DNA of 64,000 bases from Lachnospiraceae bacterium (GCA_016287095.1 JAEEVK010000007.1:274-64273), one strand, 5' to 3'. Shown: positions 46,626 to 57,710, counted from the first letter of the stretch. The notes: generated by a model not told the origin, from the letters alone. Translations and numbers: made by a program.

Positions 46626-47246
46626 ATGAAAGAAAACGTTGAATATGAAAAAAGAGCCCTTCTGATAGAGGCAGCAAAAAAAGAGTTTAAAGAAAAAGGA
46701 TATAATAAAGCATCACTCCGGAGCATATGTGCTAAAGCAGGAGTAACTACCGGTGCATTATATTTCTTCTTTGAAAACAAAGCAGAGTTATTTTCAGCCA
46801 TAGTGGATCAGCCGATAAAAGGTCTGAAAAAACTTCTTATGGAACATTTTCAGGAAGACAGGGAATATATGCAGCATCTTGATTCCATGGAAAACATGGA
46901 GATGGATCACAGTGATCTGTCCGATATGTTGGTGGAGTATATATATAGTAATTATGATAGCCTTATGCTCCTACTTACATCTGCTGAAAATACTGTTTAT
47001 GAAAATTGTATAGATGAATTGGTAACACTTACAGAAAACTCTATGCCTATTATGTTATCGGGACTTAAGGGATATACGTATGATGAATACATGTCCCATT
47101 GGATGTCACATATCACAGTTGATGCATTTTTAAATGTTATAAAACACGAGACAGATATGGAGCAGGCAAAACTTAAACTTAGAAAGATAATGAATTATCT
47201 GATTGAAGGCTGGGTAGAGCTTGTGATGGTATCGCTTAATAAGTAA
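46626..47246 (+). CDS. TetR/AcrR-family transcriptional regulator
   Basis: HTH LLIEAAKKEFKEKGYNKASLRSICAKAGVTTGALYFFFENKAELF. Confidence 0.85.
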   Translation: MKENVEYEKRALLIEAAKKEFKEKGYNKASLRSICAKAGVTTGALYFFFENKAELFSAIVDQPIKGLKKLLMEHFQEDREYMQHLDSMENMEMDHSDLSDMLVEYIYSNYDSLMLLLTSAENTVYENCIDELVTLTENSMPIMLSGLKGYTYDEYMSHWMSHITVDAFLNVIKHETDMEQAKLKLRKIMNYLIEGWVELVMVSLNK

Positions 47247-47296
47247 AAGCATTACTGTCATTCTTCTAATGGGATGACAGTAAAAAAATAACATTT

Positions 47297-47313
47297 ACAT
47301 AACATTGTTATGT
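47297..47313. promoter_or_regulatory. perfect 8-1-8 palindrome, candidate TetR operator upstream of the ABC genes
   Basis: acataaca-t-tgttatgt. Confidence 0.5.
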
Positions 47314-47369
47314 AGAATTCTAACAAACAAAAATCCTGCTTGAAGCAGGGTATCGGAAAGGAGCATAAA

Positions 47370-48071
47370 ATGTACTTAGAAGTTAAAAATGTAAAAAAGA
47401 GTTATGGTCAGGATGGCAGTTACATCCAGGTATTAAAAGGTGTCAGCACCGGTGTGGAAAAAGGGCAGATGTGTGTTATACAGGGCACCAGCGGTTCCGG
47501 GAAATCAACACTCCTTAATTGCATAGGAGGGCTAGACAATATGGATTCGGGATCTGTAAAGGTTGACGGAAATGAGATATTCGGCTTAAATCCTAAAAAA
47601 CTTGCCGACTATAGAAGAGAAAGTCTTGGATTTATATTCCAGTTTTATAATCTTGTGCCCAATCTTACAGTAAGAGAAAATATCAGGATATGTGAATATA
47701 TCTCACAGAATCCTCTGGATATGGATGAACTGCTTGAGACACTGGGGCTTACCGAGCATCAGAATAAGTTCCCTTCACAGCTTTCGGGAGGACAGCAGCA
47801 GAGATGCGCCATAGCAAGAGCCTTGATAAAAAATCCCAAACTCCTTTTGTGTGATGAACCGACAGGAGCGCTGGACTCAAAAACATCAAGGGATATCCTT
47901 ATGCTTCTCGAAAAGATAAACGCAAAGTATAATACAACGATGCTGATAGTAACCCATAATAATTCAATAAAAAATATGGTTCATAAAGTTATATTCCTAA
48001 AAGACGGTCTGATCACAAAGGACTATGAAAACGAAACCAGAGTGCCTGCAGCTGAACTTGAAGACCTGTAA
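47370..48071 (+). CDS. ABC transporter ATP-binding protein (MacB/LolD-type)
   Basis: GTSGSGKSTL, LSGGQQQR, LLLCDEPTGALD. ATG 47370 after ggaaaggag. Confidence 0.9.
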   Translation: MYLEVKNVKKSYGQDGSYIQVLKGVSTGVEKGQMCVIQGTSGSGKSTLLNCIGGLDNMDSGSVKVDGNEIFGLNPKKLADYRRESLGFIFQFYNLVPNLTVRENIRICEYISQNPLDMDELLETLGLTEHQNKFPSQLSGGQQQRCAIARALIKNPKLLLCDEPTGALDSKTSRDILMLLEKINAKYNTTMLIVTHNNSIKNMVHKVIFLKDGLITKDYENETRVPAAELEDL

Positions 48072-48108
48072 TGCGGGATAGAAGAATCTTGTAAATGGAG
48101 AAATAGAC

Positions 48109-50628
48109 ATGAATGGTGTTTTAAATAAAAGAATCCTTCGGGATTTAAAATCAAATTTCGGAAGATATGCAGCTTTGATGCTGATGATCATACTGGGTAT
48201 ATATCTGGTAGTCAGTATAGTAGGATCCTCAGAATTGGTACTGATCGGTACTGAGGAAGCAAAGAGTAAAAATATGGTTGAAGACGGACAGTTTTCAGTA
48301 TTTATCCCTTTGACAGACAGTGAAATTGACAAGCTTTCAGATAAAGGTACAGTTATAGAGAAAATGTTCAGCTTTGATGCTGACAGTTCAAACGGTTCGG
48401 TCTTAAGAGTATTTAAAACAAGAGAAAAGGTTGACCTGATCACACTTGATGAGGGAAGATTACCCAATGCAGAAAATACAGGTAATCATGAAGCAGTTAT
48501 AGAAAAAAATCATGCATCGGTCAACAATATAAAAATCGGAGATACAATCCCTGTATCAGGGGTAAATGTAAAAATAGTCGGTATCGGTTCCGTACCTGAC
48601 TACGATGCTGCACTAAAGACTTTTGCAAGTCCGGCAGTAGACTCAGAGAAATTTGGTGTTATATTCGTATCAGCAGATACATATGAGCACATAAGATCTA
48701 TATCAGAAAAGACAGAGAGCTTTACATATGCTTTCAGACTTGGAGAAGAAAGCGCAGATGATCTGAAAGAAAAAATCAAAGCACTCGACTTTGATTATGA
48801 GAAAGTTGAAGATGAGTATTTCCGTGAGACTATAGGAGAGGCTCTTGATAAGAAAAAAGAATTTACAGATGCTGTTGAGCAGTTGTCGGACGGTACCGGA
48901 AAGGTAAAGGACGGAGCCGAAAAGATGAAAAACGGACTTGCCAAATTTGGAATGGATGATGGAGGTCTGTATGATGGTACGGTTGAACTCGATGATGGTA
49001 TGAAGGAGTTTAAAACCGAGACTGAAAAACTGATAGATGAAGTATTTGAAGTAAAACTTGATAACCTGACAGAGTTTGTAAAAGCAGATGAAAATATCAG
49101 GATAGCAGCTGCAGCAGGAGATGTCATCATGGACAAGCGTGTAGGTCTTGTCGCAGGAGTTATAGTCCTTATACTGTTTGCATATGTTATATCAGTGTTT
49201 ATTGTTCATCAGATAGAGGGAGAGCAGAGTGTAATAGGTGCTTTGTATTCCATGGGAGTAAAGAAAAAAGACTTACTAAGGCATTATGTAGCTCTTCCTA
49301 CTATTATTTCATTCATTGCAGGCGGTATCGGATGTATATTGGCATTCACACCTATCGGTATCCCGATGATGGCTCAGAGCACATATGATTATTTTTCTAT
49401 ACCAGAGTTCGATATGGTACATCCCGCTTATTTGATACTGTATGGACTGGTTCTGCCTCCTGTTATATCTCTGGTAGTAAACCTGATAACTATAAACGGA
49501 AAGTTATCTCGTACAGCACTTTCACTGCTTAGAAATGAACAGAAGAGCGGAAAACTAAAGGCATACAATCTGAAGATAAAGAGCTTTACAAAACTGTTTG
49601 CAGTCAGACAGCTTCTGAGGGAATCAAGGTCAGCCATTATAATACTTATAGGTATGCTGATCACACTTATGGTTATCGTACTTGGCATAAATACATATGT
49701 ATTATGTTCAAATGTAAGGGATGATAATGTAAGGGATACAAAATATGAATATATGTATCTGTTAAAATATCCTATAAAAACCGATGATATTCCGAAAGAG
49801 GCTGAATCTACATACTTAAAGAGCCTGTCAATAGACTGTGAAGGCTATAATCAGGATGTATCGGTGATCGGTATAGATGGTACAAGCAGGTATTTTGATG
49901 CCGATCCCGAGAAGGGGAAAAACAAGGCGGTGATCAATACTTCGCTTATACAGAGATATGGCTACAAAGTGGGAGATAAAATTACATTAGAAGATAAGAC
50001 CATGGATCTGAATTATACATTTACCATTACCGGTATCAGTGATTATTCAGTCGGTTTTACAGTATTCATGGATATAGATTCCATGAGAGAACTGTTTGGA
50101 GAGGATGAAGATTATATCAATGTGCTCTATTCTGATGAAAAGCTTGATATAGAAGAGGGCAGACTGTATTCAGTAACCACAAAAGAGGATATAGAGCACT
50201 CATCAGCAGTATTTCTTGATATTATGATGTCACTGACAGTAACACTTATCAGTGCCGGTATAGTTATATGCTGTGTAGTTATGTATCTTATGATGGCAGT
50301 AATGATCGACAGATCTGCCATGGGAATATCACTGATCAAGATATTCGGATACCGTTCTAATGAAGTCAGAAAGCTGTATCTGAATGGAAACACAGCTATT
50401 GTAGCTATAGGCGGAATAATAACCATCCCTCTTGCAAAGCTGATAATTGATTCAATATATCCTTCATTTATAGCGAATGTAGCCTGCTCCATGAACCTTC
50501 ATTATCCATGGATGCTGTATGCCGGGATATATGTCGGACTTTTGGCAATATACTTTGCAGTCAATGCACTGCTCTTGAGAAAGATTAACAGGATCACTCC
50601 TGCAGAAGTATTAAAAGACAGGGAATAA
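48109..50628 (+). CDS. FtsX-family ABC permease (two FtsX modules, large soluble domains)
   Basis: 839 aa with two 4-TM FtsX-like blocks separated by soluble regions. RBS ggaga. Confidence 0.85.
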   Translation: MNGVLNKRILRDLKSNFGRYAALMLMIILGIYLVVSIVGSSELVLIGTEEAKSKNMVEDGQFSVFIPLTDSEIDKLSDKGTVIEKMFSFDADSSNGSVLRVFKTREKVDLITLDEGRLPNAENTGNHEAVIEKNHASVNNIKIGDTIPVSGVNVKIVGIGSVPDYDAALKTFASPAVDSEKFGVIFVSADTYEHIRSISEKTESFTYAFRLGEESADDLKEKIKALDFDYEKVEDEYFRETIGEALDKKKEFTDAVEQLSDGTGKVKDGAEKMKNGLAKFGMDDGGLYDGTVELDDGMKEFKTETEKLIDEVFEVKLDNLTEFVKADENIRIAAAAGDVIMDKRVGLVAGVIVLILFAYVISVFIVHQIEGEQSVIGALYSMGVKKKDLLRHYVALPTIISFIAGGIGCILAFTPIGIPMMAQSTYDYFSIPEFDMVHPAYLILYGLVLPPVISLVVNLITINGKLSRTALSLLRNEQKSGKLKAYNLKIKSFTKLFAVRQLLRESRSAIIILIGMLITLMVIVLGINTYVLCSNVRDDNVRDTKYEYMYLLKYPIKTDDIPKEAESTYLKSLSIDCEGYNQDVSVIGIDGTSRYFDADPEKGKNKAVINTSLIQRYGYKVGDKITLEDKTMDLNYTFTITGISDYSVGFTVFMDIDSMRELFGEDEDYINVLYSDEKLDIEEGRLYSVTTKEDIEHSSAVFLDIMMSLTVTLISAGIVICCVVMYLMMAVMIDRSAMGISLIKIFGYRSNEVRKLYLNGNTAIVAIGGIITIPLAKLIIDSIYPSFIANVACSMNLHYPWMLYAGIYVGLLAIYFAVNALLLRKINRITPAEVLKDRE

Positions 50629-50633
50629 ACTAC

Positions 50634-50673
50634 AAAAGGCGCATCACGATATTTACATCGTTTTGCGCCTTTT
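50634..50673. terminator. bidirectional terminator between convergent operons
   Basis: aaaaggcgca / tgcgcctttt. Confidence 0.85.
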
Positions 50674-50681
50674 GACAGGTT

Positions 50682-51284
50682 TTATTCAAAATTCTTAAAC
50701 ACTATGATTTCAACCTTATTCCCCAGGATTTTTACTTTTACATCATCTGCAATATTGGCTATAATGGATTTTTCGAGTTCATCCCAGGCCTCTGCAGTTT
50801 CATTATTGCCGTTTTCTTTTTTGATATGATTTCTATAATCAACCATAGACCAGTCAAATGATGCCCCTGAGCCTCCGGCAGGCTGATAAGCGGCTGCTGT
50901 ATTGATCAGAGCCATAGGCAATACTTCTTTTGTTGACAGAAGTGCCGAAGCTATCAATATACGTATCTTTCCCATAACACCTTTCGCTGCGGCATTCTCT
51001 CCGGTAGATGAGCTTTCTAAGAATTGTTTTTTCATCTCATCGGTCAGCTGGACTTCTGACTTCATGTGTACATCGATTTTTTTGCCTGTAACTTCAATCC
51101 AGTAGTCAGCCTCAACATCACCCGCAATACCCTTTAGCAGACCAAACAGTTCCTCTGCCAAAAGCCTCATATGAAGTTTCTGCTTTTTCTCCAGACCGTT
51201 TTCTGAAGAAATACTTTCAGTCATCTCTAAAGCCTGATCAATACCAATATTTTTGCTTGTCACCGTTATTATATCTGATCTCAT
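50682..51284 (-). CDS. hypothetical protein, translationally coupled to the GH36-GT fusion gene
   Basis: RBS ggaaggag lies inside the 3' end of the upstream gene (4-nt gap). No recognisable motif. Confidence 0.6.
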   Translation of the reverse strand: MRSDIITVTSKNIGIDQALEMTESISSENGLEKKQKLHMRLLAEELFGLLKGIAGDVEADYWIEVTGKKIDVHMKSEVQLTDEMKKQFLESSSTGENAAAKGVMGKIRILIASALLSTKEVLPMALINTAAAYQPAGGSGASFDWSMVDYRNHIKKENGNNETAEAWDELEKSIIANIADDVKVKILGNKVEIIVFKNFE

Positions 51285-51288
51285 TATA

Positions 51289-54200
51289 TTAGCTCCTTCC
51301 TCGTATAGCCAACTTCACACACTCATATGCTCCGTTATAATCGCCGTTCTTTTTCATAACATTTATGCGATCACACATATGGATAATCAGTTCCTTATCA
51401 AATATAAACCTGTCTATCATTGCGTTTGCTTTTTGCTCGGTATCGCATTCAAAGGTTCCGTCGCCTGCTTCCTGTGAACATACAGCACCGTATACTTCGT
51501 GCCCTCCGATATGTTTCATAAACAGCTTCGGGATAGGATAATATGCCAGTTCACCGGGTTTTGTTATCAGTACATCACTTTCCGGTATAAGCAGATTCGT
51601 AGCATATACCGCATTAAATATATCAGGATCATAAATGGCGGTTATTCCTTTAGCGTTTCCGTTACGTATAGATTTTACATATTCTTTCAGTCCTTCATAA
51701 TCGTCAAAGAATTTATTTACCTTTATGTCTCCCAGAGCTTTCTGCATCTTTTCATATACATCCTTATGATCACCGAAGTTGATAAAAACGGCTGACTTTC
51801 CACTTCTTACCAAAGGAATCAGATGCTTTACCATAGACAGGAACTGGTCAAATCCGGCTCCGGCACCGCCTACCGTCATTAAGAATCTCATAGGAGCATT
51901 TTCGTTTGCTCTTTTTATTCTTAATGCATTATCCTCCTCTAAGTTAACGAGCAGCTCATGATCCACATATCTTCCTACCATCTTCAGGTCTTTCTCGGGC
52001 ATTCCTTTAAGATCTTTCTTTGAAAAACCGTTCATCATCTTGTAACCCAGATATGCGAAAGGAGTCTGCACGGTATGAATAGCACCTTCGGAAAGATGAA
52101 GCGCCATAGCCCAGTTGTCGGGGATGGCATTTACCACATGCGTCATCCCGGCATGGATCGCAGCCTGGCTCGGCCAAACATGAGTAGCTATATAAGGAAC
52201 ATCTTTAGGCAATGCATTTAGTATCGGCTTAAGAAGTTCGGCATTTTTCTGGTCCTTTGCATTATATGTAATCTGACGGAACCCCTCTTTGTTCAGCGGC
52301 TCCCATACAAAATGATTAAACACATGCGACTTCTGTGATATGCGTGACGCAAGCGAATACATATCATTCTGTTCACGTATCATTTTTGAACCGGTGGCAT
52401 CAAAACCTGCAAGATCCAACCAATACGGAGTATAGCCCAGTGCCTTTGCACAGGAAGCCATAGCTATGCTTATACGGTAGTGGCCAAATCCCATCCTGAT
52501 ATTACCGACCACAAGAGGATTATCCGCTAAGCTGAAAACTTCTCCGGTGTTATTAATGTCATCATCTTTTAAAACAAGTTTCTTTACGCCGATATTATCA
52601 AGAGCAGGTACATCTGTCACATCAAAGCTGTATTTTTTATCTGAATCATCACCATATTTATCAATAAATTTCTGTTTTGATTTTTCTGCTTTTGCTACTA
52701 CCTTGCTGTCTATCTTATTCCCAAATATTACCTTTGTATGATCTGCGTTTTTATCTTTTCTTACGCGTCTCTGCTTTTCCAGCATGGTACCTTTTTGCGG
52801 ATCATAAATAATGATGCGGTTTTTACCGTTTAATTCGAATTCTATAAATATACATTTGCTTTTTCTGGTATAAGATACCAGTCTGCCGTTTTTAAAGATG
52901 GCAAGGGCATCCTCCAGTATTTTTTTCTTATCAGCATCGTATTCAGCGATATTATCCGATGTCATAAGAAGAGAGCCAAACAATGCATTTATTTTCGTAA
53001 GTGCTTTTCTCTGTTCTAATGAAAGCTTAATATTGTCGTCCCTCAGAAGGAAAACATCAGGATCATTCATAAACATATGCCCATCAAGCATACTCCTGAA
53101 AATGGTATTTTGGAGAGTAACCTTGGTTGAAACTCTTTCCGGGTGGAACATTCTCATATATAAAGCATCGTCAAAGGACAATGATACATCCGGTCCTATA
53201 CGGCAGAAATCAAATTTCCCGTTTGCATTTGAAAGTGTTGCTCCGCATCCCAGTATCAGAGCATCACCCAACTCCTCACGGAGCAGTGAGTATGCATATT
53301 CCGATGTCTCGCTTTTGGTTTTCCCATGGATAGGACAGAGATTTACAGCATAGAGGAAATCAAGTTTAAAGAAATCAAACCCGAGTTCCTTATGAAATCT
53401 AAGCGACTCCCTGACATATTTAACAGCGTCTTCGTTATTTAGGTCAAGCGGCATGAAACCGCTCCAATTGCTTCCGGCATAAATGTTGTTTCCATCGGAG
53501 TCTTTTGCAATCCATTCCGGATGCTCCTTGGCAACTGCTGATTCTGTTTCAGCCACGAAAGGAGCCAGCCATATACCGGCCTTCATACCCTTGTCATGAA
53601 TCTTTTTAACTATACCCTCGAGCCCGTCCGGGAACTTATCGGCATCTATATCCATCCAGTCCCCAACTTTGGTCTCATAACCATCATCTATCTGGAACAG
53701 ATTGAATCTTGCATCGGATTTTTCCAAAGCATCCGATATCAGTTCTTCATTTATGTCCTGATAATGATTGTACCATGAAGTATATCCGAATAATTTTTCT
53801 TTTGTCCTGGGACTAAACCGGTCAATATATTCTTTCCCGTCCGGCAGGATAACATAGTCGAACAAGGTATAGCTTTCACCGCTTTGAAGTTTTCTGCCTT
53901 CTATGTCGCTTTGCAGACGGATCAGGTTTTTCCCTTCATCAAACCATATGAGAAGGTATGCGTTTTTGAAGTTCATATTACCAATAAACACAGGGTTTTC
54001 TCCCTTGATGTAGGAAAAATCAAAACCCAGATGTGTTCCCACAGGCATATCCCAAAATGCCTGTGAACCATAAGCCTTAAACTTATACTTTTCCACTACA
54101 TTTTTAGGTCTGTTATTCAGATTGTTAAGGTATTCACCTATGGCAAATTCTTTAGTTTCGGTCCATGATTGGTACCCGTTGGCCATTATCAGATCATCGG

Positions 54201-54372
54201 GATTAAAATATTTCTTCAAAGATAAGTCGGCATCTATCAGCTCTATATCCTGGAAAGCTGTAACAGTTACAGTTCTTCTGTTCTTAGATTTTTTTTCTTC
54301 TATTACTACATTCGCATCAGAGGTCCTGGTAACCACCTGGGTTCCCTGAACGGAGTATTTCAGATTTATCAT
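51289..54372 (-). CDS. fusion protein: GH36-type alpha-galactosidase-like domain (N) plus GT-B glycosyltransferase-like domain (C)
   Basis: N-part: FQIDDGYETKVGDWMD, AGIWLAPF, FFKLDFLYA, MNDPDVF (TmGalA-like melibiase pattern). C-part: GNIRMGFGHYRI, TVGGAGAG, ITKPGELAYYPIP...GGHE (MGDG-synthase/GT28-like pattern). Confidence 0.75.
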   Translation of the reverse strand: MINLKYSVQGTQVVTRTSDANVVIEEKKSKNRRTVTVTAFQDIELIDADLSLKKYFNPDDLIMANGYQSWTETKEFAIGEYLNNLNNRPKNVVEKYKFKAYGSQAFWDMPVGTHLGFDFSYIKGENPVFIGNMNFKNAYLLIWFDEGKNLIRLQSDIEGRKLQSGESYTLFDYVILPDGKEYIDRFSPRTKEKLFGYTSWYNHYQDINEELISDALEKSDARFNLFQIDDGYETKVGDWMDIDADKFPDGLEGIVKKIHDKGMKAGIWLAPFVAETESAVAKEHPEWIAKDSDGNNIYAGSNWSGFMPLDLNNEDAVKYVRESLRFHKELGFDFFKLDFLYAVNLCPIHGKTKSETSEYAYSLLREELGDALILGCGATLSNANGKFDFCRIGPDVSLSFDDALYMRMFHPERVSTKVTLQNTIFRSMLDGHMFMNDPDVFLLRDDNIKLSLEQRKALTKINALFGSLLMTSDNIAEYDADKKKILEDALAIFKNGRLVSYTRKSKCIFIEFELNGKNRIIIYDPQKGTMLEKQRRVRKDKNADHTKVIFGNKIDSKVVAKAEKSKQKFIDKYGDDSDKKYSFDVTDVPALDNIGVKKLVLKDDDINNTGEVFSLADNPLVVGNIRMGFGHYRISIAMASCAKALGYTPYWLDLAGFDATGSKMIREQNDMYSLASRISQKSHVFNHFVWEPLNKEGFRQITYNAKDQKNAELLKPILNALPKDVPYIATHVWPSQAAIHAGMTHVVNAIPDNWAMALHLSEGAIHTVQTPFAYLGYKMMNGFSKKDLKGMPEKDLKMVGRYVDHELLVNLEEDNALRIKRANENAPMRFLMTVGGAGAGFDQFLSMVKHLIPLVRSGKSAVFINFGDHKDVYEKMQKALGDIKVNKFFDDYEGLKEYVKSIRNGNAKGITAIYDPDIFNAVYATNLLIPESDVLITKPGELAYYPIPKLFMKHIGGHEVYGAVCSQEAGDGTFECDTEQKANAMIDRFIFDKELIIHMCDRINVMKKNGDYNGAYECVKLAIRGRS

Positions 54373-54378
54373 TAGATT

Positions 54379-55782
54379 TTACCTCCCTTCATTATCTTTA
54401 TGAGCCTTCTCTATGGTTCCCATAACATTTTTCTCATCGTAGAAAAGTATGATAGCCATAGCTATGATGCAGAGGACCAGTGCGATCACAAGACTTATAC
54501 GATATCCGGTTCCGGTGTTTTTAAGTATTTCTACTCCGGCCTCATTTGTCTCGGTATATTGTCCTACTACAGCAAGAGAAGTAAATATGATCATAGCGAT
54601 AGACTGTCCCAGTTTAAATGCAAAGGTTCTGGCTGCATAGAACATCGCATCCCTGTTTTCACCGGTGTTTATGCAGTCACTTTCTGCTATATCAGCAACT
54701 ATAGCCTGGGGTATGACACCCAGGATTGAAAGCGGGACTCCAACCAGTACACAGATGATAAAGCCATATACCTGATTGGGTATAAATGAAACTTTTCCGG
54801 CAAATGCCGAAACAAGAAATGCGAATCCGAACAGTGCAAATCCCCATACCAGCAGTTTTTTCTTGCCGAATTTACGGGACAGAATATTTACCACAGGATA
54901 GCAGATGAATGTCACAAAGGTCATGAAGATGAAAAGCACCATATAGTTATCAAGTGCCAGGAGATTTTCAACATAGTAGATAAAACCGGTATTGAAAATA
55001 GTTATACCGATCCAGTATATGATATCCGAAAGAACAAAGACTCTGAAATGCTTGTTTTTAAAGGTCTTTGCCAAAGATTTAAATGCGTTTTCCTTTACAG
55101 GAGGAGTAGTGTCATAATCGGTTTCTTTTATGATAAACGCAGGAAGCAGCATACAGATAAGAGCTATGCCGGCAAGCACTGCAAGTACCAGGCGGGCACT
55201 GAAATAGTAATCCCATCCGGTGGCATTTGCAACAGCTTCCCATATCATCTTACCGGAAAAAGCAATACCTGTACCCACTATATAAGTCAGGGAAATATAT
55301 GTAGAAATATCCATTCTGTCTTTCTGATTCCTGCCAAGCACAGGGATCAAAGCGTTGTAAGGAGTACAGTATGCGGTCATGAATATGTAGAACAATATCA
55401 TGGTCACAGCAAGCCAAATAATATTTGCTACAGATTCCCCACGTACCGGACAGCAGAATATCAGTACCGTAAGCAGTGCAAAAGGAAATGCGGAGTATCT
55501 CATGAAAGGAATACGTTTACCAAGTTTACTCCTGCAGTTATCTGACATACTAGCTATCCAGGGGTCAGTCACCGCATCCACAACTCTGCCGCAAGCAGTG
55601 ATGAGACCTATGACTGTCAACCCAATAAATGTGGCACTTGTTACGAATGTGATAATGCCATTATCGGTAGAATCAGGAAGATAGAAATTGACTAGCAGAT
55701 TTGCTATGATTCCTGCAAGAATAGACCACCCCATTTGGCCTACAGCAAAGATCCATTTGATTTTACCCGATACATGCTTCAT
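54379..55782 (-). CDS. MFS transporter, glycoside-pentoside-hexuronide (GPH) family
   Basis: 12 TM. GRVVDAVTDPWIASMSD motif typical of MelB-like symporters. ATG 55782 after gaaagaagg. Confidence 0.85.
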   Translation of the reverse strand: MKHVSGKIKWIFAVGQMGWSILAGIIANLLVNFYLPDSTDNGIITFVTSATFIGLTVIGLITACGRVVDAVTDPWIASMSDNCRSKLGKRIPFMRYSAFPFALLTVLIFCCPVRGESVANIIWLAVTMILFYIFMTAYCTPYNALIPVLGRNQKDRMDISTYISLTYIVGTGIAFSGKMIWEAVANATGWDYYFSARLVLAVLAGIALICMLLPAFIIKETDYDTTPPVKENAFKSLAKTFKNKHFRVFVLSDIIYWIGITIFNTGFIYYVENLLALDNYMVLFIFMTFVTFICYPVVNILSRKFGKKKLLVWGFALFGFAFLVSAFAGKVSFIPNQVYGFIICVLVGVPLSILGVIPQAIVADIAESDCINTGENRDAMFYAARTFAFKLGQSIAMIIFTSLAVVGQYTETNEAGVEILKNTGTGYRISLVIALVLCIIAMAIILFYDEKNVMGTIEKAHKDNEGR

Positions 55783-56040
55783 AGACACCTTCTTTCCGAA
55801 AAAACATGTGATACACACATATTATTTCTACTATAAGTAATGCGTCAAAAGGTTTTACCCCTATTGATATATATATCGGATATTTTAGTAAAAAACTTAA
55901 CTTATTTGGGAAAATTTTGAGTTAATTGACAAAGGGGATTTTTTTAAAATGCTATGATAACTATTTTTGATAGTGGTCGCTTTTGATTTGAAACTATTGA
56001 TTCTTCAAACACTTTATGCTATTTATTTAATTGTGCACGC

Positions 56041-56450
56041 GGTTACTTCAGAAAGCATCATATTGAAGCGCTCCTTAAGACGGCAAAGATTAAACCTATG
56101 GTAAATCAGATCAGGTTGTGTCCCGGTGAAACTCAGAATGAAAACGTTGAGTACTGCAGATCTCAGGGTATGATCCTTGAAGCATATAGTCCACTTGAAA
56201 CAGGTAGATATTTGATGTACCTGAGATGAAGAAGCTTGCTGATAAATATGGCAGGAGCGTTGCTCAGATATGTATTCGTTGGAGCCTTCAGAGAGGGTAC
56301 CTGCCATTACCTAGGTCTGTTACACCTTCAAGGATAGAGGAAAATCTAAAGGTATTCGATTTTGAACTTGAAGAAGCAGATGTTCAGCTGATAGCAGGAC
56401 TTACAGGTTGTGTAGGTTTGTCAGAAAATCCTGATACAATGCCATTCTAA
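56041..56450 (+). pseudogene. aldo-keto reductase remnant: 5'-truncated and frameshifted
   Basis: Frame 1 reads ...IEALLKTAKIKPMVNQIRLCPG...YCRSQGMILEAYSPLETG, then a stop at 56227. Frame 3 continues IFDVPEMKKLADKYGRSVAQICIRWSLQRGYLPLPRSVTPSRIEENL. The N-terminal ~140 aa are absent. Confidence 0.8.
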
Positions 56451-56463
56451 ATATAATATTGAT

Positions 56464-56498
56464 TACACCAAATCTATGATTAGGTTTGGTGTATTTTT
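56464..56498 (+). terminator. intrinsic terminator retained after the pseudogene
   Basis: tacaccaaa / tttggtgta stem then T5. Confidence 0.75.
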
Positions 56499-56525
56499 AT
56501 TTATCAAGAAAAATGAAAAATTTGC

Positions 56526-56578
56526 TTGACAACTAAAAAAAGAAATGATATAAATATAGAGGTTAGCAATGGCTAACT
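56526..56578 (+). promoter_or_regulatory. promoter plus perfect box upstream of DUF3793-flavodoxin
   Basis: TTGACA 56526..56531, 17-nt spacer, TGn-TATAAA 56549..56554. Box ggttagcaatggctaact 56561..56578. Confidence 0.65.
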
Positions 56579-56667
56579 AAAACATATTTGTTTCAGCCCG
56601 ATTTTCGGTCAGCTTATGTTAGTAAAAACTTGGGGTTTATAGGTTGACCGATTATTTAAAAGGATGA

Positions 56668-56685
56668 GGTTAGCAAATGCTAACT
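56668..56685. promoter_or_regulatory. second perfect box near the RBS/start of the DUF3793 gene
   Basis: ggttagcaaatgctaact (GTTAG-N6-CTAAC), 23 nt before the ATG. Confidence 0.5.
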
Positions 56686-56707
56686 ATATTATTGGAAGGT
56701 ACATTCA

Positions 56708-57256
56708 ATGATTGAAAATCTTGTAACCAGATTTTGTTCACCTACTCTGGCAGGACTTAAAACCGGAAGTCTGTTTACGGTAAGAGGCAGGAAAAAAGAG
56801 GAGCTAACAGAAGATTTAAGAAAACTGAATCGAGTTCTTACGCATAAAGGTCTAAGGGCACTGCTGTTTACTGCAAAATGCGGAAACAATCTTGTTTACA
56901 TATATAGGCCTAAACTGTTGAAACGTGATCTTTCATGCTCAGAGGCAGAGAGCATATTAAAAAATAAAGGATATTCTGCTTTGAACAGTACTGAAAGATG
57001 TATAGTTCAATTGGCAAAGCATATATCCAATGATACTGATTTTCCACATGAGATTGGTCTGTTCTTAGGATATCCGCCTACTGATGTTAAGTGCTTTATG
57101 GAAAACTCGCGGGAAGGAGTAAAGTGCTCAGGATGCTGGAAGGCCTATGGGAACAAAGAAGAGGCAGAGAAAATATTTGCTTTATATAGAAAATGTACAA
57201 ATATATATTGCAGGAAGATAAGAGAAGGTGTCAGACTGGAAAAACTTATAGTTTAA
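56708..57256 (+). CDS. conserved hypothetical protein (DUF3793-like, as far as I recall that family)
   Basis: N-terminal CSPTLAGLKTGSLF and central FPHEIGLFLGYPPTDV pattern. Gene pair with flavodoxin. Confidence 0.65.
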   Translation: MIENLVTRFCSPTLAGLKTGSLFTVRGRKKEELTEDLRKLNRVLTHKGLRALLFTAKCGNNLVYIYRPKLLKRDLSCSEAESILKNKGYSALNSTERCIVQLAKHISNDTDFPHEIGLFLGYPPTDVKCFMENSREGVKCSGCWKAYGNKEEAEKIFALYRKCTNIYCRKIREGVRLEKLIV

Positions 57257-57287
57257 AAAATAATAAAAATAGAAAGGATCAAGAAAA

Positions 57288-57710
57288 ATGAGTAAAGTAG
57301 CAGTAGTATATTGGAGCCAGACAGGAAACACAAAACTTATGGCTGAGGCAGTTGAGAATGGAGCATCGGGAAAGGGTGCAGAAACAGCTATTTTTGAAGC
57401 TAATGACTTCTCAGCATCAAAAGCAGCAGAGTTTGATGGTATAGCTTTTGGTTGTCCTGCAATGGGTGCAGAGGAGCTTGAGGATACAGAGTTTGAGCCT
57501 ATGTTTGCAGCAGTTGAAGGATCACTTGCAGGAAAGAAGGTAGCGCTTTTTGGTTCATATGGCTGGGGTGACGGTCAGTGGATGAGAGACTGGGAAGACA
57601 GATGCAAAAACAATGGTATAACTCTTTGTACGGAGAGTGTAACAGCCAACGAAGCACCTGATGATGCAGCAACGGCAGCATGCAAGGCATTAGGAGAGGC
57701 ATTAGCATAA
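57288..57710 (+). CDS. short-chain flavodoxin
   Basis: VVYWSQTGNTKLMAEAV FMN phosphate loop, GSYGWGDG. Confidence 0.9.
   Translation: MSKVAVVYWSQTGNTKLMAEAVENGASGKGAETAIFEANDFSASKAAEFDGIAFGCPAMGAEELEDTEFEPMFAAVEGSLAGKKVALFGSYGWGDGQWMRDWEDRCKNNGITLCTESVTANEAPDDAATAACKALGEALA

What the first reader, a model, noticed from the sequence alone, without database searches (positions are those of the whole stretch)
50682..55782. Operon encoding a GPH sugar symporter, a GH36-alpha-galactosidase/GT-B glycosyltransferase fusion and a coupled unknown protein
The 1027-aa protein joins a TmGalA-like GH36 domain (FQIDDGY, KLDFLYA, NDPDV; about nt 52755..54372) to a ~430-aa domain with GT-B/GT28-like hallmarks (G-x-G-H near its start, TVGGAGAG, ITKPGE...GGHE; nt 51289..~52600). 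The two are linked by a Lys-rich segment. A hydrolase fused to a putative transferase, both on the sugar-import side of a symporter, suggests coupled deglycosylation and re-glycosylation, or transglycosylation of an imported galactoside. Ruminococcus gnavus AgaSK, a GH36 fused to a sucrose kinase, is a precedent for GH36 fusions, but with a different partner. RBS/stop overlaps indicate tight translational coupling of all three genes.
Basis: partly seen in the sequence, partly recalled or inferred. Interest (0 to 1): 0.65.

Follow-up and report, generated by a model that had tools for sequence, protein, structure and literature searches.

The report
Alpha-galactosidase fused to unknown GT-B enzyme
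A rumen Lachnospiraceae bacterium has fused two neighbouring genes of a widespread gut galactoside-utilisation cassette, an alpha-galactosidase and an uncharacterised glycosyltransferase-fold enzyme (Pfam DUF6937+DUF6938), which shows that the two work together, but the second enzyme's reaction is still unknown.

Summary
Three co-directional, tightly spaced genes lie on the minus strand: a GPH/MFS_2 transporter, a 1027-aa fusion and a 200-aa protein, closed by a strong terminator. The fusion has an N-terminal TmGalA-type GH36 domain with both catalytic Asp. Its C-terminal half is Pfam DUF6937+DUF6938. That half models confidently as a GT-B fold, and its only significant sequence link to a solved structure is the GT28 enzyme UgtP (E 5e-4).

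The fusion is not an artefact. It occurs in about 16 protein clusters from independent assemblies. In most relatives the two halves are adjacent, overlapping genes within a cassette: TetR, MFS_2, GH36, DUF, sometimes a galactokinase-like gene. A second, very abundant gut clade keeps the DUF but has non-orthologous partners: a MelB-like permease, an AgaA-type GH36, a GH2 beta-galactosidase, GalK and GalT.

The DUF family therefore belongs to alpha-galactoside/galactose metabolism. Its reaction is unknown, and no paper in the library mentions it.

The 200-aa protein is not a conserved partner. It has a SpoIIAB/RsbW-like fold, sits in STAS/SpoIIE loci elsewhere, and is deleted in the closest relatives.

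Verdict: a real and moderately interesting lead to an uncharacterised enzyme family.

The parts
55821..55848 (-). Promoter-like site (TTGACG-16 nt-AATAAT) about 40 nt upstream of the transporter start
   Evidence: This is a consensus match only; the region as a whole is not enriched over shuffles.
54379..55782 (-). GPH-family (MFS_2) transporter, 467 aa from the ATG at 55782. The mechanical ORF runs to a GTG at 55818.
   Evidence: Pfam MFS_2 171.6 bits. TIGR00792 gph scores 143 bits, below its cutoff of 231. Nine or more hydrophobic segments. An MFS_2 gene lies immediately upstream of the GH36/DUF genes in 52 of 60 related loci.
51289..54372 (-). 1027-aa fusion protein, GH36 alpha-galactosidase plus DUF6937/DUF6938 GT-B enzyme. 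It is cytoplasmic, with no hydrophobic segment.
   Evidence: Fused homologs at 68-98% identity occur in about 16 clusters from NCBI, ENA and Logan assemblies and in 6 Lachnospiraceae MAGs, L011-L016.
52768..54372 (-). GH36 (TmGalA-type) domain, aa 1-535. Predicted nucleophile D338 (nt 53359-53361) and acid/base D395 (nt 53188-53190).
   Evidence: phmmer against PDB gives 6lcj at E 2.7e-42 and 1zy9 (TmGalA) at 2.9e-38. KLDFLYA aligns with the TmGalA KIDFL nucleophile and RIGPD with its GPD acid/base.
52732..52767 (-). Junction linker, aa ~536-547. Its sequence varies among fused homologs. It replaces the TAATG stop/start overlap of the unfused genes.
52036..52731 (-). DUF6937: the N-terminal extension and N-terminal Rossmann-like half of the GT-B fold. 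The GFGH(631)YR loop follows the first strand.
   Evidence: Pfam E 1.5e-107. AF2 model with pLDDT 89.7 and pTM 0.90. G, G, H, Y and R are invariant among 42 homologs.
51307..52002 (-). DUF6938: the C-terminal, nucleotide-binding-type half of the GT-B fold, carrying TVGGAGAG, ITK(938)PGE(941) and GGHE(959).
   Evidence: Pfam E 1.4e-85. The family profile aligns this region with UgtP (PDB 9wde), full-sequence E 4.8e-4.
50682..51284 (-). 200-aa protein with a SpoIIAB/RsbW-like (GHKL anti-sigma-kinase) fold. It is variable, not part of the conserved cassette, and an orphan here: no STAS or SpoIIE gene lies in the window.
   Evidence: AF2 pLDDT 80. Foldseek hits 1tid/1th8 SpoIIAB at E 6e-4, TM 0.6-0.7. 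Homologs lie between STAS genes and SpoIIE. Deleted in L011 and L015. No partner genes in the window.
50630..50678 (-). Intrinsic terminator closing the operon. It is shared with the convergent ABC-permease gene, which ends at 50628.
   Evidence: -26.2 kcal/mol, z -7.45, followed by UUUUGUAGUUU.

Best explanation
The locus is a trimmed copy of a widespread, horizontally shared galactoside-utilisation cassette. The usual form is TetR, a GPH symporter, a GH36 alpha-galactosidase, a DUF6937/DUF6938 GT-B enzyme and sometimes a galactokinase-like gene. In one rumen Lachnospiraceae clade the adjacent GH36 and GT-B genes have fused.

**Shown or strongly inferred**
- The symporter imports a soluble galactoside.
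- The GH36 domain is a retaining hydrolase (D338 nucleophile, D395 acid/base) that removes a terminal alpha-galactose in the cytoplasm.
- In related cassettes the freed galactose enters the Leloir pathway through GalK-like and GalT genes.
- The C-terminal domain is a divergent GT28-like GT-B enzyme with an intact nucleotide-sugar-type site. It works in the same pathway as the alpha-galactosidase.

**Inferred; about 0.25-0.3 likely on its own**
- The GT-B domain takes the other product of the GH36 step, a beta-glycoside such as beta-galactosyl-glycerol from the plant galactolipid DGDG (alphaGal1-6betaGal-glycerol).
- It cleaves that product by reversible glycosyl transfer to UDP (or phosphate), so both galactoses end as UDP-Gal or Gal-1-P.

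The 200-aa gene is an unrelated SpoIIAB-like passenger.
For: **Domains:**

**The fusion is real:** about 16 fused clusters, 6 MAGs, and a conserved junction with a variable linker where unfused genes have a TAATG overlap.

**Cassette statistics in 80 species-level loci:**
- GH36 directly upstream or fused: 61/71
- MFS_2: 52/60
- TetR: 36/58
- GalK-like downstream: 12/67 (identified)

**Second clade, about 49% identical:** it has a different gene order and non-orthologous partners: TetR, GH2 beta-galactosidase, DUF, MelB-like permease, AgaA-type GH36, GalK, GalT. The link is therefore to alpha-galactosidase activity and galactose metabolism, not to one particular gene lineage.

**Distant member:** a 30%-identical homolog lies next to a bona fide GalT.

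**Minimal form:** Treponema loci carry only MFS_2 plus DUF. This implies the DUF acts on something the permease imports.

**For the specific substrate idea:**
- The only significant sequence relative with a structure is a diacylglycerol beta-glycosyltransferase, and MGD1 is among the best fold matches.
- DGDG contains exactly one alpha-Gal bond (a GH36 substrate) and one beta-Gal-glycerol bond (the MGD1-type bond).
- The closest 80 genomes are overwhelmingly from rumen and herbivore gut.
- Fusions usually join consecutive steps.
Against: - No biochemical data exist for any family member.
- Reverse transfer from an alkyl beta-galactoside to UDP is thermodynamically uphill (general knowledge). 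No inverting GT-B phosphorylase is known.
- In the second clade a GH2 beta-galactosidase sits beside the DUF. It would be redundant with a beta-galactoside-cleaving DUF.
- GalT next to the DUF fits a UDP-Gal-consuming, forward transferase equally well.
- Alpha- plus beta-galactosidase clusters with GalK/GalT are common general 'galactoside' loci in Firmicutes and need not mean DGDG.
- No glycerol-metabolism genes recur nearby.
- The herbivore bias is partly a ranking effect, because the query is from the rumen. The cassette also occurs in Clostridium thermarum and in human-gut metagenomes.
Confidence: 0.6

Rival explanations
1. Anabolic reading. The cassette is a linear galactose-scavenging route: import, alpha-galactosidase, GalK, GalT, UDP-Gal. 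The GT-B enzyme is its last step, a forward UDP-Gal (or UDP-Glc) dependent beta-glycosyltransferase. It would make a glycolipid such as beta-Gal-diacylglycerol, as MGD1 and UgtP do, or another galactoside.
For: - GT28-like motifs and the UgtP hit, and the MGD1 fold match.
- GalK-like and GalT genes are in the operons but no GalE was seen.
- A distant homolog lies between GalT and an SRPBCC lipid-binding-type protein.
- Stand-alone, housekeeping-like copies lie next to lipid genes in a Leptospira-like contig.
- The DUF is neutral to basic (median pI 8.1, N-domain 8.9) while the GH36 half is 5.3, as expected for a peripheral membrane enzyme.
- The regulator is TetR-type, which often senses lipids (general knowledge).
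Against: - A fusion, or a 1-nt overlap, between the first and the last enzyme of a five-step route is unusual.
- Identity of 60-77% across Firmicutes, Spirochaetes and Mollicutes-like lineages, and co-transfer with a permease, is typical of accessory catabolic cassettes rather than membrane-lipid synthesis.
- Bacteria normally make UDP-Gal with GalE and need no imported galactose.
- MFS_2-plus-DUF-only loci lack any activation genes.
Confidence: 0.25
2. The hydrolase and the transferase remodel one imported glycoside: the alpha-Gal is removed and the GT-B domain then adds a different sugar (deglycosylation then re-glycosylation, or transglycosylation).
For: The fusion and the near-universal adjacency of GH36 and DUF. 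The nucleotide-sugar-type site is intact. GH36 contains natural transglycosidases, the plant raffinose and stachyose synthases (general knowledge; PMC9912918 is listed).
Against: No benefit is apparent for a cytoplasmic, imported nutrient. The cassette is embedded in Leloir and galactosidase genes, which indicates breakdown. No export or product-handling genes recur.
Confidence: 0.08
3. The GT-B domain is not a catalyst of the pathway. It is a ligand-binding or regulatory module, for example one that senses UDP-Gal or the galactoside and modulates the permease or the hydrolase.
For: Some divergent family members have lost the GxGH motif (P0374, P0375, P0376, P0389, P0413). The MFS_2-DUF pairing is the most constant feature.
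Against: In the gut clades conservation is extreme. About 170 columns are invariant among 42 homologs, including every putative active-site loop. That is more typical of an enzyme.
Confidence: 0.05
4. The fusion is a sequencing frameshift or an assembly artefact that joins two genes.
For: In most genomes the two halves are separate genes that overlap by one base, so a single-base error could mimic a fusion.
Against: Fused ORFs of 1018-1034 aa occur at 68-98% identity in about 16 clusters from independent projects and in six MAGs from sheep, goat and buffalo. All carry an extra 12-17 aa linker that is absent from the unfused genes.
Confidence: 0.01

Closest known systems
Ruminococcus gnavus AgaSK (GH36 alpha-galactosidase fused to a sucrose kinase; PDB 2yfn)
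   Same: It is a gut Firmicute GH36 fused at its C-terminus to a second enzyme that processes the non-galactose product of the imported alpha-galactoside. The GH36 regions are homologous (E 2.2e-6).
   Different: AgaSK has an AgaA-type GH36 and a P-loop kinase partner. This protein has a TmGalA-type GH36 and a GT-B partner of unknown activity.
Thermotoga maritima TmGalA and Thermus TtGalA (short GH36 alpha-galactosidases; PDB 1zy9, 6lcj)
   Same: They are the best solved homologs of aa ~192-496 (E 1e-38 to 1e-42). The FQIDD, K-x-D nucleophile and GPD acid/base motifs are conserved.
   Different: They are stand-alone enzymes. Identity is moderate, and the substrate range of the cassette subfamily is untested.
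GT28 diacylglycerol beta-glycosyltransferases: B. subtilis UgtP/YpfP (PDB 9wde) and Arabidopsis MGD1 (4wyi, 4x1t)
   Same: GT-B fold. A G-x-G-H loop follows the first strand. The C-terminal motifs TKPxE...P...G-x-(H/Q)-E align with UgtP. MGD1 gives one of the best TM-scores, 0.58-0.60.
   Different: Identity is only 9-14%. No GT28 Pfam family is matched. The DUF carries a ~75-aa N-terminal extension and a helical insertion, and each half is about 230 aa. Its genomic context is sugar catabolism, not cell-envelope synthesis. Donor and acceptor are unknown.
Sucrose synthase (a GT4 GT-B enzyme used catabolically) and the Bifidobacterium lnpABCD pathway (phosphorylase, kinase, GalT, GalE)
   Same: They are functional analogies for the favoured mechanism. 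One is a glycosyltransferase-fold enzyme run in the cleavage direction to conserve bond energy. The other is an operon that joins a galactoside-cleaving enzyme to an anomeric kinase and GalT (general knowledge).
   Different: There is no sequence relationship. Sucrose synthase is retaining. The analogy is an inference, not a test.
E. coli yih sulfoquinovose system (YihO GPH permease plus YihQ GH31 sulfoquinovosidase)
   Same: A GPH-family permease is paired with a clan GH-D glycosidase to use the head group of a plant thylakoid glycolipid. YihQ's role is described in PMC13618843.
   Different: The sugar, glycosidase family and downstream pathway all differ, and there is no GT-B enzyme.

Membership tests
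GH36 (alpha-galactosidase family, TmGalA-type subgroup) | Significant match to the family model and to solved members | tested here: met
   Pfam Melibiase 65.6 bits against a cutoff of 27. 6lcj E 2.7e-42 and 1zy9 E 2.9e-38.
GH36 (alpha-galactosidase family, TmGalA-type subgroup) | Catalytic nucleophile Asp (TmGalA D327) and acid/base Asp (D387) present | tested here: met
   D338 in KLDFLYA and D395 in RIGPDVS align with the TmGalA residues. The D327 and D387 numbering is from memory of the TmGalA literature.
GH36 (alpha-galactosidase family, TmGalA-type subgroup) | Alpha-galactosidase activity | not testable with these tools
   It needs an assay. Context supports it: a GalK-like gene lies downstream in 12 of 67 loci.
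GT-B glycosyltransferase superfamily | Two Rossmann-like halves with an interdomain cleft | tested here: met
   AF2 model with pLDDT 89.7 and pTM 0.90. Among the 50 best Foldseek PDB matches shown (86 have E <= 1e-3) all are GT-B enzymes, at E 5e-7 to 2e-4.
CAZy GT28 (MurG / MGD1 / UgtP) | Sequence membership, i.e. a match to the GT28 models (Glyco_transf_28, Glyco_tran_28_C, MGDG_synth) | tested here: not met
   No GT28 Pfam family appears even at E <= 1, and distant members also match only DUF6937 and DUF6938. phmmer against PDB finds nothing. Only a 35-sequence profile reaches UgtP, at E 4.8e-4.
CAZy GT28 (MurG / MGD1 / UgtP) | G-rich loop with the catalytic His after the first strand, and the C-terminal nucleotide-binding motif | tested here: inconclusive
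   GFGH631YR and ITKPGE...GGHE are present and invariant in the gut clades, and they are collinear with UgtP. The N-terminal segment is not significant on its own. The catalytic role is inferred from memory of MurG and MGD1.
CAZy GT28 (MurG / MGD1 / UgtP) | UDP-sugar donor, lipid (diacylglycerol or lipid I) acceptor, inverting mechanism | not testable with these tools
   It needs biochemistry.
GPH (glycoside-pentoside-hexuronide:cation symporter, TC 2.A.2) | Match to the family models | tested here: inconclusive
   Pfam MFS_2 171.6 bits, above its cutoff. TIGR00792 gives 143 bits, below its cutoff of 231. The best PDB matches are the MFSD2A lysolipid symporters at 1e-9, ahead of MelB at 1e-4. 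The second-clade permeases are clearly MelB-like.
AgaSK-type bifunctional alpha-galactosidase | GH36 fused to a sucrose kinase domain | tested here: not met
   The C-terminal partner is DUF6937/DUF6938 with a GT-B fold, not a kinase.
SpoIIAB/RsbW anti-sigma-factor serine kinases (for the 200-aa protein) | GHKL fold and a partner-switching genomic context | tested here: inconclusive
   The fold matches SpoIIAB, RsbW and UsfX (E 6e-4, TM 0.6-0.7). Homologs sit between STAS genes and SpoIIE. However, there is no HATPase_c_2 Pfam hit, the ATP-binding motifs were not verified, and no STAS or SpoIIE gene lies in this window.

The most novel reading that the evidence does not exclude
DUF6937/DUF6938 would be a new family of GT28-like GT-B enzymes that works catabolically. 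It would cleave the beta-galactosyl-glycerol bond left after GH36 removes the alpha-galactose from the head group of plant digalactosyl lipids, passing the galactose to UDP or phosphate. The fused protein would then be a bifunctional 'digalactosylglycerol-ase'. The cassette would be the missing bacterial route for the most abundant lipid head groups in the herbivore diet.
Probability: 0.15. Interest if true: 0.8.

Novelty: new variant of a known kind. Interest (0 to 1): 0.58.

Why it matters
The C-terminal domain belongs to an uncharacterised family that is very common in gut metagenomes:
- more than 5500 90%-identity clusters were found in one capped search;
- second-clade clusters hold about 2800 sequences each, and one exact sequence was seen on at least 1000 contigs.

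The family sits inside alpha-galactoside/galactose utilisation loci. Raffinose-family sugars, melibiose and plant galactolipids are major dietary substrates for rumen and colon bacteria, so an unknown conserved enzyme in these loci is a gap in the accepted pathway.

The natural fusion is direct genetic evidence that this enzyme cooperates with the alpha-galactosidase. It also supplies a ready-made bifunctional construct for assays. A cultured host, Clostridium thermarum, carries the unfused cassette.

Tried and rejected
- **Sequence searches of the C-terminal half against PDB.** A single-sequence search found nothing. Only a diverse profile reached UgtP.
- **Search of the 1.84-billion representative library.** It showed a compact family (432 clusters at E <= 1e-3) with no bridge to a named GT family. 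Distant members hit only the two DUF models.
- **Literature.** There are no papers for DUF6937, DUF6938, PF22052 or PF22053. GH36/GT28/galactokinase/MFS, galactosylglycerol/rumen and TetR/melibiose/Lachnospiraceae queries returned nothing on this cassette.
- **ypfP-ltaA-like glycolipid synthase plus flippase.** Considered and down-weighted. LtaA was not among the PDB matches of the permease. The second-clade permease is a clear MelB homolog, and the operons carry galactosidases and Leloir genes.
- **Detoxifying GT plus efflux pump (macrolide-GT-like).** Considered and rejected for the same reasons.
- **Sucrose-cleaving role (raffinose gives sucrose, as in AgaSK or GtfA).** Considered unlikely. 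The motifs are of the inverting GT1/GT28 type, whereas sucrose needs retention at glucose. This is inference, not a test.
- **Homologs of the GH36 domain without a DUF neighbour.** Clostridium omnivorum gave no clue to a displaced function.
- **Rfam scan of 50000-57500.** No riboswitch or leader was found.
- **Neighbour clustering.** No recurrent glycerol, lipase or GalE genes turned up.

Full report
**1. What is in the sequence**

On the minus strand of the window there are three co-directional ORFs:
- 54379..55818, with a probable ATG start at 55782 after GAAAGAAGG, giving 467 aa;
- 51289..54372, 1027 aa;
- 50682..51284, 200 aa.

The gaps are 6 nt and 4 nt, and a Shine-Dalgarno sequence lies over or just before each upstream stop codon. 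A promoter-like TTGACG-16-AATAAT lies at 55848-55821. A strong hairpin followed by a U-tract closes the unit at about 50630-50678 (-26.2 kcal/mol, z = -7.45). No Rfam family matches between 50000 and 57500. GC skew is inverted over 50-56 kb, consistent with a minus-strand unit among plus-strand genes.

**2. The three proteins**

*Transporter.* It scores 171.6 bits on Pfam MFS_2. On TIGR00792 (GPH) it scores 143 bits, below the 231-bit cutoff. It has nine or more hydrophobic segments. Against PDB it matches the MFSD2A lysolipid symporters (1e-9) slightly better than MelB (1e-4), but only locally. It is a divergent GPH-family permease.

*Fusion, N-terminal half.*
- Pfam Melibiase scores 65.6 bits.
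- The best solved homologs are the short GH36 alpha-galactosidases 6lcj (E 2.7e-42) and TmGalA 1zy9 (E 2.9e-38). AgaSK (2yfn) is a weak hit.
- In those alignments KLDFLYA (D338) matches the TmGalA nucleophile motif, RIGPD (D395) matches the acid/base motif, and FQIDDGY is conserved.

*Fusion, C-terminal half.*
- Pfam DUF6937 covers aa 548-779 (E 1.5e-107) and DUF6938 covers aa 791-1022 (E 1.4e-85).
- A single-sequence PDB search finds nothing.
- An AlphaFold2 model built on 42 homologs is confident, with pLDDT 89.7 and pTM 0.90.
- Among the 50 best Foldseek matches shown, all are GT-B enzymes, and only distantly (E 5e-7 to 2e-4, 9-14% identity). They include glycogen synthase, a GT1 macrolide glycosyltransferase, Arabidopsis MGD1 (TM 0.58-0.60), WaaG and UDP-GlcNAc 2-epimerase.
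- A profile of 35 diverse family members finds one significant solved relative, 9wde 'processive diacylglycerol beta-glucosyltransferase' (UgtP, GT28), at E 4.8e-4. The alignment covers the C-terminal TKPxE...P...GxxE motif, and the G-x-G-H loop is in register.
- These loops are invariant among the 42 close homologs.

The domain is not, however, a sequence member of GT28. The fusion has no hydrophobic segment. The GH36 half has pI 5.3, and the GT-B half has pI 7.3 with an N-domain of 8.9.

*200-aa protein.* It has no Pfam hit and about 1000 homologs in Clostridia. Its model (pLDDT 80) resembles the anti-sigma kinases SpoIIAB, RsbW and UsfX (E 6e-4, TM 0.6-0.7). Its homologs lie between STAS genes and a SpoIIE phosphatase, or next to a MatE-HATPase_c_2 protein.

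**3. The fusion is real and is a Rosetta stone**

Full-length fused homologs of 1018-1034 aa, at 68-98% identity, occur in about 16 clusters from NCBI, ENA and Logan. They also occur in six Lachnospiraceae MAGs from sheep, goat and buffalo.

Stand-alone DUF6937-DUF6938 proteins of about 478 aa are far more common. More than 5500 clusters were found in one capped search, at 65-77% identity. They come from Lachnospiraceae, Oscillospiraceae, Bacilli, Acholeplasmatales, Erysipelotrichaceae, Treponema and other spirochaetes.

In the unfused form the GH36 gene (about 535-550 aa) ends in a TAATG overlap with the DUF gene. The fused clade has a 12-17 aa variable linker at that point.

**4. The conserved cassette**

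In 80 loci from a collection holding one genome per species:
- the GH36 gene is directly upstream of, or fused to, the DUF gene in 61 of 71 loci with enough flank;
- an MFS_2 gene precedes it in 52 of 60 loci (both genes in 48, MFS_2 only in 4);
- a TetR regulator precedes the MFS_2 gene in 36 of 58 loci;
- a galactokinase-like GHMP kinase follows in 12 of 67 loci. It has the Pfam galactokinase signature and scores E 6e-49 on the NCBIfam galactokinase model, below the cutoff.

Treponema loci have only MFS_2 plus DUF. The cultured Clostridium thermarum has TetR-MFS_2-GH36-DUF.

A metagenome scan seeded with distant members mostly recovered a second clade, about 47-51% identical to the window's domain. 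It has a different gene order and non-orthologous partners:
- TetR;
- a GH2 beta-galactosidase in some loci (best PDB match 5ldr, E 7e-154);
- the DUF;
- a MelB-like permease (E 1.7e-114);
- an AgaA-type GH36 of about 800 aa;
- a GalK-like gene and a type-2 GalT in some loci (the GalT scores 733 bits, above the cutoff).

Among 72 loci the counts were MFS_2 42, TetR 40, GH36 33, GH2 20, GalK 8 and GalT 8. Many of these contigs are truncated.

This clade is very abundant. Its clusters hold about 2800 sequences each, and one exact sequence was seen on at least 1000 contigs. A 30%-identical environmental homolog lies between a bona fide GalT and an SRPBCC protein. Two other distant homologs are stand-alone.

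The permease and the alpha-galactosidase have thus been replaced by non-orthologous genes while the DUF was kept. This is the strongest evidence that the DUF family functions in alpha-galactoside/galactose metabolism.

**5. The 200-aa gene is a passenger**

- It is absent from the locus of a 69%-identical fused homolog.
- In the syntenic relative L011 (about 91% nucleotide identity), window 50720-51320 is missing.
- In L015 only a 68-nt 3' remnant is left, with different boundaries.
- No STAS or SpoIIE gene lies in the window.

The gene is probably co-transcribed here but is not part of the module.

**6. How it most likely works**

*Shown or strongly inferred.* A GPH permease imports a soluble galactoside. 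The GH36 domain hydrolyses a terminal alpha-galactose. Galactose goes to the Leloir pathway, whose genes are inside related cassettes though not in this window. The GT-B domain acts in the same pathway and has a complete nucleotide-sugar-type site.

*Inferred.* Fusions and overlapping genes usually join consecutive steps, and MFS_2-plus-DUF pairs exist without a glycosidase. I therefore favour a model in which the GT-B domain acts on the second product of the GH36 step.

The candidate that fits best is the head group of plant digalactosyl lipids, alphaGal1-6betaGal-glycerol. It fits the GT28 relatives (MGD1 and UgtP both make beta-hexosyl-glycerolipid bonds), the two bond types in the molecule, and the herbivore-gut bias of the closest genomes. 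The beta-galactosyl bond would be cleaved by transfer to UDP or phosphate. I put this specific step at about 0.25-0.3.

The main rival, at about 0.25, is the forward reaction: a UDP-Gal-dependent beta-glycosyltransferase, possibly making a glycolipid, fed by scavenged galactose. This fits the GalT neighbours, the basic pI and the TetR regulator. It fits the fusion and the accessory, horizontally shared nature of the cassette less well.

Weak points of the favoured model:
- UDP-dependent cleavage is thermodynamically uphill.
- No inverting GT-B phosphorylase is known.
- The GH2 beta-galactosidase in the second clade would be redundant.
- No glycerol-metabolism genes recur nearby.

**7. Comparison with what is known**

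The closest analogy is AgaSK, a GH36 fused to a sucrose kinase, but the partner here is different. The GH36 half is an ordinary member of the TmGalA-type subgroup. The GT-B half is a divergent relative of GT28 and fails sequence membership.

No paper in the searchable library mentions DUF6937 or DUF6938. Targeted searches found nothing on this cassette. A 2026 systematic review of plant glycolipids and gut bacteria never uses the word 'galactosidase'. The bacterial enzymes it names are those for the sulfolipid, YihQ and the sulfoglycolysis pathways.

**8. Verdict**

The feature is real. It is a new fused variant built from a known hydrolase family and an uncharacterised but very widespread GT-B family. 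Its value is as a well-supported functional lead, with testable substrates and a cultured host, rather than as a solved mechanism. Interest is 0.58.

Noticed in passing
window 56047-56447 (minus strand): This is a frameshifted C-terminal remnant (residues ~150-283) of an aldo/keto reductase that is intact in the relative L011 (94-96% identity in two frames). In L011 a TetR plus MacB/FtsX permease plus ABC ATPase module lies between that gene and the transporter. About 4.4 kb of it is missing in the window. In L015 an AraC-family regulator sits there instead. The region upstream of the operon, and so its regulation, differs between close strains.
   Followed up: partly
window 50682-51284; also L007 6678-9467 and L009 6679-9495: The 200-aa protein belongs to an unannotated family of about 1000 members. 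The family has a SpoIIAB/RsbW-like fold and is normally flanked by STAS anti-anti-sigma genes and a SpoIIE phosphatase, or by a MatE-HATPase_c_2 fusion. Here it is an orphan. Canonical ATP-binding motifs were not evident among the invariant residues, so it may be a pseudokinase-type partner-switching component.
   Followed up: partly
window 46626-50628 (plus strand): A TetR regulator, an ABC ATPase and an 839-aa FtsX/MacB-type permease form an operon convergent with the sugar operon. The two share the terminator region. This TetR is not homologous to the cassette TetR at E <= 1e-4.
   Followed up: partly
L030, L033, L037, L040, L050 (downstream of the DUF gene): In several Bacilli and RF39-like MAGs the DUF gene is followed by an ABC ATPase (about 256-290 aa) and an ABC-2 permease (about 396-402 aa). 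The pair resembles NatAB-type exporters by size and order. It may be linked to Na+ cycling for a Na+-coupled GPH symporter.
   Followed up: no
alignment A2 (P0374, P0375, P0376, P0389, P0413): A subset of divergent DUF6937/DUF6938 proteins has lost the G-x-G-H loop and part of the GGAGA loop while keeping the fold-defining residues. They are possibly inactive or re-purposed paralogs.
   Followed up: no
L091 6140-6988 and 8437-9126: In a high-GC environmental contig the DUF gene lies between a 282-aa protein with no family match and an SRPBCC (lipid or hydrophobic-ligand binding type) protein, directly downstream of GalT. This is a different and possibly ancestral context for the family.
   Followed up: partly
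L001 1636-4197 and 10090-11358; L022 12249-13517: Fatty-acid kinase (FakA), DegV and a PlsC-like acyltransferase with a zinc ribbon lie near some cassettes. The acyltransferase cluster occurs in 4 loci. This is too sparse to call, but it is relevant to the lipid-related hypotheses.
   Followed up: no
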